Sequence record: NC_010105.1
DNA from: Escherichia phage JS98
Length of the DNA: 64,000 nt
Strand: one strand, 5' to 3'
Shown: one piece after another, positions 24,365 to 25,663 of the stretch
How positions within the stretch are numbered: the stretch's first letter is position 1
Layout of the letters: each line of letters begins with the position of its first letter
The notes under the pieces: generated by a model
The model's database searches: none
What the model was told of the DNA's origin: nothing
What the model saw: only the letters and a program-made list of their open reading frames with translations
Made by a program: the position numbers and the translations under genes

Positions 24365-24393
24365 CCTTTTTTTAAAGATTTAGAAACAAAAAT

Positions 24394-24411
24394 GGGACTC
24401 CGAAGAGTCCC
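24394..24411 (-). terminator. Intrinsic terminator GGGACUC-UUCG-GAGUCCC + U-tract
   Basis: 7 bp stem with UUCG loop on the - transcript followed by AUUUUUGUUUCU. Confidence 0.65.
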
Positions 24412-24416
24412 ATAAC

Positions 24417-24578
24417 TTATGCCTGAGGCTTACCAAAGCAAGCAGCATCTGCACGCAATACTGCACGAGCACGAGCTTGAAGCTTATCAACTACCTGATT
24501 GATACGCTTGTTGGACGCACGCTTGTAACCAGCGCGTTTAGAGGTACCGTCAACTACTTTAACTTCTTTCTTAGCCAT
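24417..24578 (-). CDS. Small basic protein, 53 aa
   Basis: Manually read MAKKEVKVVDGTSKRAGYKRASNKRINQVVDKLQARARAVLRADAACFGKPQA; strong terminator follows. Confidence 0.45.
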   Translation of the reverse strand: MAKKEVKVVDGTSKRAGYKRASNKRINQVVDKLQARARAVLRADAACFGKPQA

Positions 24579-24884
24579 TTTTAAATCTCTTAAATTAGGA
24601 TGCAGGACTTATTGACATTGCCTGCGCAAGCCCTCAAGGGGAACATAGGTTTTAGATATTTAACGACAGGATAACCATAAACCTCGTCATCATAGCTCTT
24701 ATCTGTTGCACACCGTTAGCTTAAAGGTTCCGGGTTCGATTTCTCGAGGATAAGATATATACTGATGGATATATAGGCCTTGAGGCGTACTCCCGATTGG
24801 CCATCACCTCGGGGTAGCATGCACTTGCCGCTATAAAATACATTCAAGAGGTACACCGTAAAACTGCTGGGGTCTTAAAACTAT

Positions 24885-24902
24885 AATGATTCGCAAATCA
24901 TT
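24885..24902 (-). other. Hairpin AATGATT-CGCA-AATCATT 30 nt downstream of rIII
   Basis: Perfect 7 bp inverted repeat; AT-rich stem, so terminator function is uncertain. Confidence 0.35.
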
Positions 24903-24930
24903 AATCAGACAGTTCGACGGCTCCTCGATT

Positions 24931-25179
24931 TTACTTCAGGGTAATAATAAAATGACGTACTGCTTTACGAGCTGCTGAAGCCAAAGGCTTAGCATATTTC
25001 AGTTCATCTTTTGCTTCCAGTTCAGCAGCCAGAGTAGCCTGAGCAGGATTAAGATGTTTGAAATAACGCAGGATTTCCAGTGCTTCGGCTTCAACATCAA
25101 TAGATGCGCCGTAGTTTTCGTGACCGTTGTTCCAAGCGTTGCGTTGCAGTTCAAGAGCGTGATTCAGATGTTTGTTCAT
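24931..25179 (-). CDS. rIII: rIII lysis-inhibition accessory protein
   Basis: 82 aa from the internal ATG (T4 rIII is 82 aa); position between the 30.x block and gene 31 as in the T4 map. Confidence 0.6.
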   Translation of the reverse strand: MNKHLNHALELQRNAWNNGHENYGASIDVEAEALEILRYFKHLNPAQATLAAELEAKDELKYAKPLASAARKAVRHFIITLK

Positions 25180-25331
25180 TTTAAATTCTCGATTCGAGAT
25201 AAAGATTGGTGGACACGTTCTTCTGAATTTCACTTCCTTTCGGCAAGTCTCTCAGTTGTAGTCCACCGCTTAGGATTAGCTAACCCCATACACCAGCAAA
25301 GCTCTGTATGACATTAGCCAATCCATATTAT

Positions 25332-25339
25332 TATTTATA
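25332..25339 (-). promoter_or_regulatory. Late promoter TATAAATA upstream of rIII
   Basis: Exact rc motif about 150 nt upstream of rIII. Confidence 0.4.
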
Positions 25340-25663
25340 TCACTTATAAAGACACGGAATAGCTTTATAGTGACAGGTAACGAATTTCTGTTTAATTTCT
25401 TTAGGCTGTTTAATACCCAATGCAACTAAAGGATGTGGCACGTTAGCAATCTTACCAACAGGAAGTGGAGTCAAATCGCCTACTTCACAAAACCCTTCAG
25501 GGACATCAGGTCCTACAGAATAAATTTCACAAAGTTCAGGGATTTCACCTTGATGAAGTTTGCCAATAACGATACCAGATGCAGTAGTTTCTTCATCGCC
25601 AGCTTGTTTTGGTTCGGAAACGAGAATAACATATTCTCCGACCGCTTTAATAGGAAGTTCCAT
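25340..25663 (-). CDS. 31: Co-chaperonin gp31 (GroES-like)
   Basis: 107 aa with GroES-like fold pattern; T4 position; MotA-type promoter upstream. Confidence 0.8.

What the first reader, a model, noticed from the sequence alone, without database searches (positions are those of the whole stretch)
24580..24930. Unusually long non-coding, hairpin-rich gap between rIII and the 30.x gene block
About 350 bp lack any ORF above roughly 35 codons in a genome where genes otherwise abut or overlap. The region contains a perfect 7 bp hairpin (24885-24902), partially complementary distant segments (GCCCTCAAGGGG near 24640 and GGCCTTGAGGCG near 24778) and a tRNA-T-loop-like GGTTCGAT motif that does not fold into a cloverleaf. 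It could encode a small structured RNA or a processing or regulatory site.
Basis: seen in the sequence. Interest (0 to 1): 0.45.

Follow-up and report, generated by a model that had tools for sequence, protein, structure and literature searches.

The report
New structured RNA gene in T-even phages
The "empty" gap after the rIII gene of this T4-like phage holds a 147-base RNA gene whose folded shape is preserved by dozens of matched mutations across about 400 related phages; it matches no described RNA family, and its function is still unknown.

Summary
The gap is real: 352 nt (24579-24930) between 30.9 and rIII in a JS10-like Dhakavirus. It is modular. Its outer thirds are also present in T4. 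The central 147 nt (24690-24836, minus strand, same sense as rIII and 30.9) is a discrete cassette that T4 and T2 lack. It occurs once per genome in 409 enterobacterial T4-like phage records.

The cassette folds into a closing stem P1, a four-way junction with no unpaired bases, a long bulged arm P2, a hairpin P3, and a P4 arm carrying P5 and P6. 34 of 50 pairs show compensatory changes and 96.5% of cells are paired (slid controls 30-40%). G.U outnumbers A.C 56 to 3, which fixes the strand. The 6-nt loops of P2 and P3 are Watson-Crick complementary in every copy, with six different sequence pairs, so they form a kissing-loop contact.

The cassette is better conserved than the flanking genes and has no conserved reading frame. 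I found no match to tRNA, Rfam, T4 rnaC/rnaD, rRNA, E. coli genomes or plasmids.

In Slopekvirus and Pseudotevenvirus it sits elsewhere (uvsY.-2/uvsW.1 gap), once with no ORF downstream. The best reading is a free-standing accessory structured RNA acting as a folded particle. Function is not shown.

The parts
24690..24836 (-). The structured RNA unit (147 nt, 5' end at 24836). It is a single copy in the window.
   Evidence: Covariance model R1 scores 176.9 bits here, E = 1.6e-37, and it is the only hit in 64 kb. The boundaries coincide with the P1 stem and with the T4 indel.
24830..24835 (-). P1 closing stem, 5' strand UAUAGC. It pairs with 24691-24696 (GCUAUG).
   Evidence: All 6 pairs show changes on both sides across phages: UAUAGC/GCUAUA, UAAAC/GUUUA, AUAC/GUAU, ACAC/GUGU, AUUAG/CUAAU, GUAG/CUAC.
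24776..24829 (-). P2 arm. P2a is GGC/GCC (24827-24829 with 24776-24778). The invariant internal loop is AAGUGCAU (24819-24826) opposite CUCAAG (24779-24784). P2b is 24814-24818 with 24785-24790, P2c is 24809-24813 with 24792-24796, and P2d is 24807-24808 with 24799-24800.
   Evidence: In P2b and P2c, 8 of 10 pairs covary and 99.7% of cells are paired. P2a never varies.
24801..24806 (-). L2, the 6-nt terminal loop of P2 (UGAUGG). It is the kissing partner of L3.
   Evidence: It is perfectly complementary to L3 in every copy, with six different sequence pairs.
24756..24775 (-). P3 hairpin (UAUAUAU/GUAUAUA) with loop L3, CCAUCA, at 24763-24768.
   Evidence: 4 of 7 stem pairs covary. L3 covaries with L2.
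24697..24755 (-). P4 domain. P4 is UCUUAUC/GAUAAGA (24749-24755 with 24697-24703). The P5 hairpin is 24736-24747 with a GAAA loop at 24740-24743. P6 is ACCCG/CGG-U-GU (24731-24735 with 24710-24715), with a conserved 15-nt loop at 24716-24730. The invariant joiner GCAACA is at 24704-24709.
   Evidence: Pairs that covary: P4 5 of 7, P5 4 of 4, P6 2 of 5 (C:G to U:A in four sequences, A:U to U:A in one).
24837..24930 (-). Spacer between the rIII stop and the RNA. It is also present in T4 and holds the perfect 7-bp hairpin at 24885-24902.
   Evidence: Aligns with T4 and ATK47. MFE is -25.8 against -16.1 kcal/mol for shuffles, z = -3.06. The scan calls no intrinsic terminator here.
24579..24689 (-). 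Spacer between the RNA and the 30.9 start. It contains the small hairpin CCC-UUGA-GGG (24630-24641) with conserved flanks (GUNCCC..GGGCUUG), and a hairpin GCAGG-N14-CCUGC (24602-24625).
   Evidence: The GUNCCC-N4-GGG(G)CUUG hairpin follows the RNA in every genomic context. It is also present in phages without the RNA, such as T4 and KP15-like phages. The overall fold is not better than shuffles (z = 0.25).
24931..25179 (-). rIII (82 aa), the upstream gene, in the same sense as the RNA.
   Evidence: PHROG 1457, lysis inhibition accessory protein, E = 5.6e-43. Annotated as rIII in JS10.
24417..24578 (-). Gene 30.9 (53 aa, function unknown), the downstream gene, in the same sense as the RNA.
   Evidence: PHROG 1427, E = 4.3e-27. 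Annotated as 30.9 in JS10.
24392..24413 (-). Intrinsic terminator after 30.9. It is the first terminator-like site downstream of the RNA.
   Evidence: 9-bp stem with 5 G-C pairs, followed by TTTTGTTT. A terminator is annotated at the same place in fPS-2.
25332..25339 (-). Exact T4 late-promoter box TATAAATA, directly after the gp31 stop. It is the likely source of late transcripts that run through rIII into the RNA.
   Evidence: The sequence is at the start of window:25180-25339 read on the minus strand, and is conserved in fPS-2, T4, ATK47, F48 and EnC15. That TATAAATA marks T4 late promoters is established knowledge.

Best explanation
Window 24690-24836 (minus strand) is a gene-like cassette for a 147-nt structured non-coding RNA that belongs to no described family.

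Shown:
- It folds into a closing stem P1 and a four-way junction with no unpaired nucleotides.
- From the junction come a long bulged arm P2 with an invariant internal loop, a short hairpin P3, and an arm P4 that branches into P5 (GNRA-type loop) and P6 (conserved 15-nt loop).
- The six-base loops of P2 and P3 pair with each other.

Inferred:
- It is transcribed with rIII. The late promoter box lies at 25332-25339, no terminator lies between it and the RNA, and the P1 5' strand must be in the transcript.
- It works as a self-contained folded particle rather than as an antisense RNA or as the leader of one particular gene.
- The invariant unpaired surfaces (AAGKGCAU internal loop, GCAACR joiner, P6 loop) bind a partner. 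A host or phage protein is most likely; a small ligand is less likely.
- It is an accessory function that T4-like phages gain, lose and exchange as a cassette.

I put about 0.95 on 'conserved functional RNA structure on this strand' and about 0.45 on the free-standing, trans-acting particle mechanism.
For: Fold:
- 96.2% of cells are paired on a MAFFT alignment of 24 copies, against 27-42% for slid controls. 21 of 45 pairs have changes on both sides, and 0 of 500 shuffles reach this.
- On 34 copies that include a divergent clade, 97.6% of cells are paired and 31 of 45 pairs covary.
- With the loop-loop helix added, 34 of 50 pairs covary.
- RNAalifold finds the same helices independently.

Strand: 56 G.U cells against 3 A.C cells.

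Kissing loops: there are six different complementary pairs. Each loop forms a duplex of at least 6 nt with its own partner, against a mean of 3.3 nt when loops are cross-paired.

Selection: RNA identity between the window and KP179 is 89.9%, against 71-75% for gp31, rIII and 30.9 and 46-52% for the flanking spacers. No reading frame is conserved.

Discrete unit: conservation stops at P1. T4, T2 and ATK47 lack exactly this unit.

Not tied to one gene:
- In Tevenvirinae, Muldoonvirus and Marfavirus it lies between rIII and 30.9.
- In Slopekvirus phiEap-3, Pseudotevenvirus GAP161, Citrof4 and JC03, and in JC221, it lies after uvsY.-2 in the convergent gap before uvsW.1.
- In GAP161 no ORF longer than 16 codons follows it before the terminator.

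Cassette behaviour:
- Close relatives with 82-93% identical UvsY lack it.
- KP15-like phages join the late-promoter box directly to the downstream hairpin at the place where phiEap-3 carries the RNA.
- The RNA is 99.3% identical between this Dhakavirus and the Tequatrovirus fPS-2, although rIII is 85% and gp31 77% identical.

Phage-only: no match in 5,426 E. coli genomes or in PLSDB plasmids.
Against: - There is no transcript, end-mapping or binding data, so a trans-acting role is inferred only from context.
- In most phages the RNA does lie in the 5' leader of a small ORF (30.9, or the unannotated ORF in phiEap-3 and JC221). A cis role therefore remains possible.
- No terminator or conserved processing site defines a 3' end right after P1, so release of a discrete RNA is unproven.
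- Alignment A4 was fitted to the model, which inflates pair counts somewhat. The MAFFT-based A3 gives the same picture.
- Diversity is narrow: there are two clades and many near-identical copies, so cell counts overstate the number of independent events.
- P2a (GGC/GCC) has no covariation.
- Whether the loop-loop helix forms within one molecule or between molecules cannot be decided from sequence.
Confidence: 0.45

Rival explanations
1. It is a cis-acting leader or riboswitch-like sensor. The fold is an aptamer in the 5' leader of 30.9 (or of the small ORF in Slopekvirus and JC221). It binds a metabolite, second messenger or protein and controls the downstream gene through the following hairpin and ribosome-binding region.
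For: The architecture is classical for aptamers: a closing P1, a multi-helix junction, invariant unpaired nucleotides, and loop-loop locking as in the lysine and purine riboswitches. In phiEap-3 the RNA begins a few bases after an exact late-promoter box TATAAATA and precedes a hairpin plus a conserved small ORF. In Tevenvirinae, 30.9 always follows within about 40-180 nt.
Against: The downstream genes differ between contexts and exist unchanged without the RNA in T4 and KP15-like phages. GAP161-type phages have no ORF between the RNA and the terminator. The one candidate alternative pairing, CCUCAAGG with CCUUGAGG, does not covary. The sequence 3' of P1 is not conserved. No Rfam riboswitch matches, even at E <= 10.
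Confidence: 0.2
2. It is a self-cleaving ribozyme or self-processing module. The conserved core catalyses cleavage at or near one edge of the unit. This would separate rIII mRNA from 30.9 mRNA, or release the RNA itself wherever the cassette lands.
For: The size, compactness, invariant internal loop and joiner, and docking-type tertiary contact fit small ribozymes. The cassette-like spread between transcription units resembles the scattered distribution of twister, hatchet and pistol ribozymes in phages (established knowledge). A perfect four-way junction with loop-bearing adjacent arms recalls the natural hairpin ribozyme.
Against: No known ribozyme model matches. No sequence signature of a known active site is present. 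Nothing here tests catalysis.
Confidence: 0.12
3. It is an mRNA stabiliser or insulator: a compact fold in the 3' UTR of rIII (or of the uvsY operon) that blocks 3'-to-5' exonucleases, or insulates translation and decay of the neighbouring cistrons.
For: It always lies just downstream of a gene in the same sense. The T4 literature documents extensive mRNA processing in this gene block (PMC9409239, read).
Against: Simple hairpins are enough for such roles. About 45% of positions are invariant, including unpaired ones, and the kissing loop covaries. That is far more constraint than a barrier needs. T4 does without it.
Confidence: 0.08
4. It is a DNA-level element such as a replication origin, a recombination hotspot or a transposon-like insert with terminal inverted repeats.
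For: It behaves as an indel cassette. One record (ATK47) annotates an 'ori type 2 repeat' nearby. The second context lies next to uvsY and uvsW, and the T4 origin oriF lies in uvsY (established knowledge).
Against: The G.U against A.C asymmetry (56 to 3) shows selection on one transcribed strand. The terminal complementary arms (P1) vary in sequence while keeping the pairing, which is the opposite of protein-recognised terminal repeats.
Confidence: 0.03
5. It is a small protein gene (the 40- or 46-codon minus-strand ORF, annotated as a hypothetical protein in some records), or a degenerate tRNA on the plus strand as the T-loop motif suggested.
For: ORFs lie at 24716-24856 and 24721-24843. CLB_P2 and COW86c records annotate a CDS over the unit. 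GGTTCGAT is at 24733-24740.
Against: The longest stop-free stretch changes frame and strand between copies and drops to 26-28 codons in Muldoon and PS2. One- and two-base indels occur. ARAGORN finds no tRNA in the window or in five related loci. The motif is on the non-structured strand.
Confidence: 0.02

Closest known systems
phi29 packaging RNA (pRNA)
   Same: Both are phage-encoded RNAs of about 120-170 nt built round a helical junction. Both have two loops in the same molecule that are Watson-Crick complementary and covary between related phages. Here L2 and L3 keep 6 bp with six different sequence pairs.
   Different: There is no sequence or model match. This RNA has a four-way plus a three-way junction instead of one three-way junction. 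The complementary stretch is 6 nt, not 4. T4-type packaging motors need no RNA, and T4 itself lacks this RNA, so it is dispensable. Whether the loops pair between molecules is untested.
Lysine riboswitch aptamer (and purine riboswitch L2-L3)
   Same: They share a closing P1, a multi-helix junction and invariant junction nucleotides. In both, a bent P2 arm has a terminal loop that forms a roughly six-base-pair kissing complex with the loop of the neighbouring P3, pre-organising the fold (established knowledge for the riboswitch; for this RNA).
   Different: It is not a member: no Rfam hit at E <= 10. There is no constant regulated gene, and one context has no downstream ORF. No expression platform was found and no ligand is known.
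ROOL, GOLLD and OLE RNAs (ornate RNAs that form RNA-only homo-oligomers)
   Same: These are orphan structured RNAs, partly phage or prophage borne. Cryo-EM showed that they assemble into homo-oligomers (PMC12286853, abstract seen). Covarying complementary loops in one small RNA make the same behaviour conceivable here.
   Different: Those RNAs are several-fold larger and come from other bacterial lineages. No model matches. Oligomerisation of this RNA is only a possibility.
T4 stable RNAs rnaC (species 1) and rnaD (species 2)
   Same: Both are small stable RNAs of T-even phages (139 and 119 nt) with no known function. They show that this phage group carries orphan RNA genes (annotation seen).
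   Different: They lie in the tRNA cluster and rnaC ends in a tRNA-like T arm. Model R1, run with filters off, gives no hit on them (best score in the region is 5 bits, elsewhere). The present RNA is absent from T4.
PeSL promoter/stem-loop cassettes of T4-type phages
   Same: These are short conserved regulatory modules at indel boundaries that are thought to mediate modular shuffling in T4-like genomes (PMC2839356, PMC4122927). The RNA is itself an indel cassette. It always sits just upstream of a small conserved hairpin that is also present when the RNA is absent.
   Different: PeSLs are about 50-70 bp promoter-plus-hairpin units and do not form a complex fold. The promoter-like TTTTAC-N17-TATTTT in the window overlaps the P1 5' strand, so it cannot produce the complete RNA. 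The sigma-70 scan finds no promoter here.

Membership tests
tRNA / tRNA-like element | A cloverleaf detectable by a tRNA finder | tested here: not met
   ARAGORN finds 0 genes in the window and 0 in five related loci.
tRNA / tRNA-like element | The T-loop motif lies on the strand that carries the conserved structure | tested here: not met
   GGTTCGAT is on the plus strand. The 56 G.U against 3 A.C cells place the RNA on the minus strand.
Any Rfam 15 family (including lysine riboswitch, hairpin, twister, hatchet and pistol ribozymes, pRNA, ROOL, GOLLD) | A covariance-model score at or above the family's gathering threshold | tested here: not met
   There are no gathering-level hits in 64 kb. 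At E <= 10 on 24560-24950, the only hit is a 9.8-bit noise match to mcrA that lies outside the unit. Nothing falls on the JC221 copy.
T4 rnaC / rnaD stable RNAs | Detectable homology of sequence plus structure | tested here: not met
   Model R1 with filters off on T4 69000-76000 gives no hit over rnaC or rnaD. The best score in the region is 5.2 bits.
   There are six distinct complementary L2/L3 pairs, each at least 6 nt. Cross-paired loops average 3.3 nt.
   This needs native gels, SEC-MALS or cryo-EM. My rough geometric reasoning disfavours a collinear intramolecular kiss but does not exclude a bent one.
   The RNA is absent from T4, T2, ATK47, and RB16/RB43-like and KP15-like phages, which are viable.
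Riboswitch (cis-regulatory aptamer) | A P1-closed multi-helix aptamer with invariant unpaired nucleotides | tested here: met
Riboswitch (cis-regulatory aptamer) | A constant position in the 5' leader of a functionally coherent gene set | tested here: not met
   It lies upstream of 30.9 in one context, upstream of an unrelated small ORF in another, and upstream of no ORF in GAP161.
Riboswitch (cis-regulatory aptamer) | An expression platform with conserved alternative pairing | tested here: inconclusive
   I examined only one candidate, CCUCAAGG/CCUUGAGG, and it does not covary. I made no systematic search.
Self-cleaving ribozyme | Site-specific self-cleavage | not testable with these tools
   This needs in vitro transcription and cleavage assays.
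PeSL cassette | An early promoter joined to a stem-loop | tested here: inconclusive
   TTTTAC-N17-TATTTT (24863-24835, minus strand) resembles the PST/T4 consensus TTTACW-N17-TAYWAT. However, it overlaps P1, and the sigma-70 scan reports nothing.
Small protein-coding gene | A reading frame conserved across homologues | tested here: not met
   The frame and strand of the longest open stretch vary, from 26 to 51 codons, and indels of 1-2 nt occur.

The most novel reading that the evidence does not exclude
The unit is the founding member of a new functional RNA class in the T-even phage group. That would be a pRNA- or ROOL-like RNA-only or RNA-protein particle in a phage lineage thought to have none. 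The other possibility is a new ligand-sensing or catalytic fold. Either way it would serve as an exchangeable accessory module, for example as a decoy or sponge against a host defence.
Probability: 0.3. Interest if true: 0.88.

Novelty: new variant of a known kind. Interest (0 to 1): 0.74.

Why it matters
T4 and its relatives are among the most intensively studied viruses. Even so, this RNA is unannotated, or mis-annotated as a hypothetical protein, in every record I inspected. It matches none of the 4,227 Rfam models, and ten full-text searches turned up no description of it.

T4 itself lacks the RNA, which may explain why it was missed. It is present in about 400 sequenced phages of Escherichia, Shigella, Klebsiella, Enterobacter, Yersinia, Salmonella, Citrobacter, Serratia, Erwinia and Edwardsiella, many of them phage-therapy candidates.

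The fold has unusually clear evidence: compensatory changes in 34 of 50 pairs, including a six-base kissing loop that has been rewritten six times. It therefore offers a ready target for structural and genetic work. Natural presence/absence pairs already exist for comparison (fPS-2 against T4, phiEap-3 against KP15-like, GAP161 against RB16/RB43-like).

If the RNA is a decoy, sensor, ribozyme or self-assembling particle, it would add an RNA-based accessory function to the T-even toolkit.

Tried and rejected
1. tRNA or T-loop remnant. ARAGORN is negative and the motif is on the wrong strand.

2. Known RNA family. Rfam is negative at gathering thresholds and at E <= 10.

3. Homology to T4 rnaC/rnaD. 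Model R1 with filters off is negative.

4. Mimicry of, or complementarity to, host rRNA. From memory I suspected similarity to 16S h27, M1 RNA and tmRNA. Against the real rrnA operon, the longest shared 10-mer (sense) and 11-mer (antisense) are matched by 42% and 10% of dinucleotide shuffles. The 11-mer also falls on a variable part of the RNA. I did not test M1 RNA or tmRNA against real sequences.

5. Host or plasmid origin. There is no BLAST match in 5,426 E. coli genomes, and only chance 30-nt matches in plasmids.

6. Protein-coding. No reading frame is conserved.

7. It does not covary.

8. An own early promoter, TTTTAC-N17-TATTTT. Its predicted start lies inside GGCAAG and would omit the covarying P1 5' strand. 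The sigma-70 scan finds nothing.

9. Wider homologue hunts.
R1 rejected the 192 of those loci that I screened. The remaining 28 bacterial loci (L235-L262) were not screened.
- Tighter patterns in IMG/VR and in metagenomes returned only T4-like contigs of 143-179 kb plus fragments, with no new clade.

10. Extra tertiary contacts by mutual information. The result was confounded by the two-clade phylogeny and nothing convincing emerged. A possible UGCA/UGCA contact between the P2 internal loop and the P6/P4 joiner involves only invariant bases and cannot be tested.

11. Literature. Ten full-text searches found no description. The supplement of the survey of 10,006 viral candidate RNAs (PMC10690425) is not held, so I could not check whether this motif is listed there.
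Full report
**Setting.** The window is a JS10-like Dhakavirus, a T4-like phage of E. coli. The 961 bases around the finding are 98% identical to phages EcWhh-1, dhaeg, CLB_P2 and JS10. Genes here run on the minus strand. They are gp31 (25340-25663), rIII (24931-25179; PHROG 1457, E = 5.6e-43), 30.9 (24417-24578; PHROG 1427, function unknown), and then an intrinsic terminator at 24392-24413.

**Checking the observation.** The gap is real and spans 24579-24930 (352 nt). One detail is off. Mechanical ORFs of 46 and 40 codons exist on the minus strand, and two database records annotate a hypothetical protein there. No tRNA is found, and no Rfam family reaches threshold anywhere in the window.

**The gap is modular.** A BLAST search of the gap against 50,697 phage records hits 997 records, but only 177 of them cover most of it. 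T4, T2 and many others match only the two outer thirds. The central part matches, at 94-96% identity, phages of Klebsiella, Enterobacter and Serratia whose flanks are unalignable. A six-phage alignment shows a clean indel. T4 lacks exactly the central unit, and ATK47 has an unrelated 45-nt filler. The central unit alone is found in 409 records, always once per genome. These cover Dhakavirus, part of Tequatrovirus (for example fPS-2), Gaprivervirus, Jiaodavirus, Karamvirus, Kanagawavirus, Roskildevirus, Marfavirus and Muldoonvirus. In each of these that I inspected, it lies between rIII and 30.9 in the sense of those genes.

**The fold.** Aligning diverse copies showed compensatory changes by eye. 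RNAalifold on 24 distinct copies predicted a multi-helix fold in which 20 of 44 pairs have double changes. I fixed the structure on a trimmed MAFFT alignment (A3) as follows:
- P1 is the closing stem.
- P2a (GGC/GCC) leads to an internal loop (AAGUGCAU opposite CUCAAG), then to P2b, P2c and P2d with three small bulges.
- P3 is a hairpin.
- P4 encloses P5 (GAAA loop) and P6 (15-nt loop).
- P1, P2a, P3 and P4 meet with no unpaired base, so they form a perfect four-way junction.

On A3, 96.2% of cells are paired, against 27-42% when partners are slid by 1-3 columns. 21 of 45 pairs change on both sides (shuffle mean 9.4), and 0 of 500 shuffles reach the observed value. G.U cells outnumber A.C cells 56 to 3, so the structure is selected on the minus strand, which is the rIII/30.9 mRNA sense.

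A covariance model (R1) scores 176.9 bits at 24690-24836 and nothing else in the window. It also finds nothing in the T4 or ATK47 rIII loci.

**A divergent clade and more covariation.** A 38-nt BLAST hit led to Yersinia phage JC221. From there I reached Slopekvirus phiEap-3 and the Pseudotevenvirus phages GAP161, Citrof4 and JC03. Separately I found Escherichia phage EcS1, Enterobacter phage EnC15 and Erwinia phage IT22. R1 finds complete copies in all of them, scoring 92-149 bits. On the resulting 34-sequence alignment, 97.6% of cells are paired and 31 of 45 pairs covary. P6, which was invariant before, now covaries (C:G to U:A in four sequences, A:U to U:A in one). Only P2a lacks covariation. 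This alignment was fitted to the model, so it leans towards the structure, but the MAFFT alignment gave the same picture.

**Kissing loops.** The six-base loop of P2 (L2, 24801-24806, UGAUGG) is the exact complement of the six-base loop of P3 (L3, 24763-24768, CCAUCA). This holds in every copy, with six different sequence pairs:
- UGAUGG/CCAUCA
- CGAUGG/CCAUCG
- CUAUGG/CCAUAG
- CAAUGA/UCAUUG
- UGCAUU/AAUGCA
- UUGUAUU/AAUACAA

Each loop forms at least 6 contiguous Watson-Crick pairs with its own partner. Cross-paired loops from different types average 3.3 pairs, and only 3% of them reach 6. With this helix added, 34 of 50 pairs covary.

Sequence alone cannot tell whether the helix forms within one molecule or between molecules. 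By rough geometry (my inference), a collinear kiss of P3 (7 bp), the loop helix (6 bp) and P2b-d (13 bp) could not be closed by P2a plus the internal loop. An intramolecular kiss would therefore need bending at the bulges.

**Not coding, and under stronger constraint than its neighbours.** Between the window and KP179 the RNA is 89.9% identical. By comparison rIII is 73.5%, 30.9 is 74.7%, gp31 is 71.2%, and the flanking spacers are 46-52% identical. Muldoon and PEi26 give similar contrasts. The longest stop-free stretch changes frame and strand between copies (26-51 codons), and 1-2-nt indels occur.

**What it is not.**
- The Rfam search at E <= 10 finds nothing on the unit or on the JC221 copy.
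- R1 with filters off does not hit T4 rnaC or rnaD.
- Apparent resemblances to 16S rRNA that I recalled from memory are no better than shuffles when tested against the real rrnA operon.
- No copy exists in 5,426 complete E. coli genomes or in PLSDB plasmids.
- The bacterial and viral loci pulled in by my over-loose patterns are not homologues: R1 rejects the 192 I screened, and 28 bacterial loci were left unscreened.
- Tighter scans of IMG/VR and of metagenomes recover only T4-like contigs.
- Ten full-text searches found no description of this RNA. A survey of 10,006 viral candidate RNAs exists (PMC10690425), but its lists are not available to me.

**Genomic behaviour.** There are two contexts.

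Context (i) is rIII, then the RNA, then 30.9, in Tevenvirinae and some unclassified genera.

Context (ii) is found in phiEap-3, GAP161, Citrof4, JC03 and JC221. There the RNA follows uvsY.-2 and a tiny ORF, inside the convergent gap before uvsW.1.

In both contexts, close relatives lack the RNA. Of 11 loci with UvsY 73-100% identical to that of GAP161, only the two identical ones carry it. The indel anatomy is sharp:
- KP15-like Slopekvirus reads TATAAATA-CTAGCG|TACCCGAAAGGGGCTTG.
- phiEap-3 reads TATAAATA-CTATCG|TAGGGCAAG...RNA...CTACGATTATACCACAG|TACCCGAAAGGGGCTTG.
- RB16/RB43-like phages carry an unrelated module of about 150 nt in the same slot, and JC221 carries both.

A small hairpin with conserved flanks (GUNCCC-N4-GGG(G)CUUG; window 24630-24641) follows the RNA at 5-60 nt in every context. 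It is also present when the RNA is absent. The RNA is 99.3% identical between this Dhakavirus and the Tequatrovirus fPS-2, although rIII is 85% and gp31 77% identical. That points to recent exchange of the cassette, on top of strong constraint.

**Transcription (inferred).**
- An exact late-promoter box TATAAATA sits right after the gp31 stop (25339-25332) and is conserved in six of ten phages compared.
- No terminator-like site lies between it and the RNA. The first one is after 30.9.
- In the window, a T4-early-like TTTTAC-N17-TATTTT ends 6 nt before GGCAAG. Its predicted start would omit the covarying P1 5' strand, so it cannot make the complete RNA. The functional transcript must come from upstream.
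- In phiEap-3 the late box lies 9 nt before GGCAAG, and a late transcript would begin within P1.

**Mechanism.** The following is shown: a discrete, strongly constrained, strand-specific RNA fold with a tertiary or quaternary loop-loop contact, which is phage-specific, dispensable and mobile as a cassette. The rest is inferred.

I favour a free-standing RNA that acts as a folded particle through its invariant unpaired surfaces, most likely by binding a protein (confidence about 0.45). Two points support this. The unit keeps its exact boundaries in unrelated transcription units. In GAP161-type phages nothing translatable follows it before the terminator.

The main rival is a riboswitch-like leader (0.2). 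The architecture fits, and in most phages a small ORF does follow. However, the ORFs differ, they exist without the RNA, and I found no conserved switching helix. A self-cleaving or self-processing module (0.12) would also explain the context independence, and these tools cannot test it. An mRNA-stability role (0.08), a DNA-level role (0.03), and coding or tRNA readings (0.02) fit the data poorly.

**Comparison and novelty.**
- In its behaviour it is closest to phi29 pRNA (covarying complementary loops in one phage RNA) and to the lysine-riboswitch aptamer (junction plus L2-L3 kiss).
- As an orphan phage RNA it sits beside T4 rnaC/rnaD and beside the ornate ROOL and GOLLD RNAs, now known to self-assemble (PMC12286853).
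- It is a member of none of these. Every membership feature I could test by sequence failed, except the shared architectural ones.

I class it as a new variant of a known kind (an orphan structured phage RNA) that belongs to no described family. About 0.3 of the probability goes to its founding a new functional class.

**Limits.**
- There are no expression or biochemical data.
- Diversity is narrow: two clades and many near-identical copies.
- One alignment was model-fitted.
- Absence from the literature is judged only from the open-access library available here.

Noticed in passing
window 25180-25339 (minus strand): The gp31-rIII intergenic region starts with an exact late-promoter box TATAAATA (25339-25332). 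It then folds into two strong hairpins (MFE -50 against -31 kcal/mol for shuffles, z = -4.8). Both hairpins keep their pairing through compensatory changes in ten phages (7 of 13 pairs).
   Followed up: partly
window 24837-24930 (minus strand): The spacer between the rIII stop and the RNA, which T4 shares, folds better than shuffles (z = -3.06). Its long imperfect hairpin encloses the perfect 7-bp stem at 24885-24902. The E. coli phages are too similar here for covariation.
   Followed up: partly
window 24630-24647 (minus strand); L286:1373-1390; L287:1400-1418; L014:1090-1107: A small hairpin with conserved flanks, GUNCCC-N4-GGG(G)CUUG, follows the RNA in every genomic context. It is also present in T4 and in KP15-like phages that lack the RNA. 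In the window and in T4, an 18-codon ORF (MFPLRACAGN(V/A)NKSCI(L/F)I) starts at the AUG just 5' of it. Its role is unknown; it could be a processing site, a recombination anchor or an upstream ORF.
   Followed up: no
L296:3164-3320 and L014:753-900: RB16/RB43-like phages carry a different conserved non-coding module of about 150 nt (GTAGGTAAAAAGTTGCCATAGGCAAGAC...) in the uvsY.-2/uvsW.1 slot where GAP161 has the RNA. JC221 has both in tandem. It is not a tRNA, has no Rfam hit on the JC221 copy, and is absent from the window. It may be a second orphan RNA cassette.
   Followed up: partly
L286:1397-1489; L014:1089-1199; L298 (same region): An unannotated small ORF with a conserved C-terminal half (..LLRRP(M/I)EFTFG(G/E)VID(N/K)IPS.KG.) lies downstream of the hairpin in phiEap-3, KP15-like phages and JC221. 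It has no PHROG match.
   Followed up: partly
L006:~1700-1735, L007:~1762-1795, L004:~2142-2180 (just after the rIII stop); absent from the window: T4, ATK47 and KP179 carry a motif like GATTCACTGCCTTAGTGTGAGCTAAAAT right after rIII. From memory it resembles a type I-F CRISPR repeat (GTTCACTGCCGTACAGGCAGCTTAGAAA). JC221 has a related copy downstream of its RNA. I did not test the resemblance.
   Followed up: no
OL770107.1 (L003:1842-2018), PP597396.1 (L009:595-729), and several Klebsiella phage records: Public records annotate 'hypothetical protein' CDSs across the RNA unit. These calls are probably spurious, because no reading frame is conserved.
   Followed up: yes
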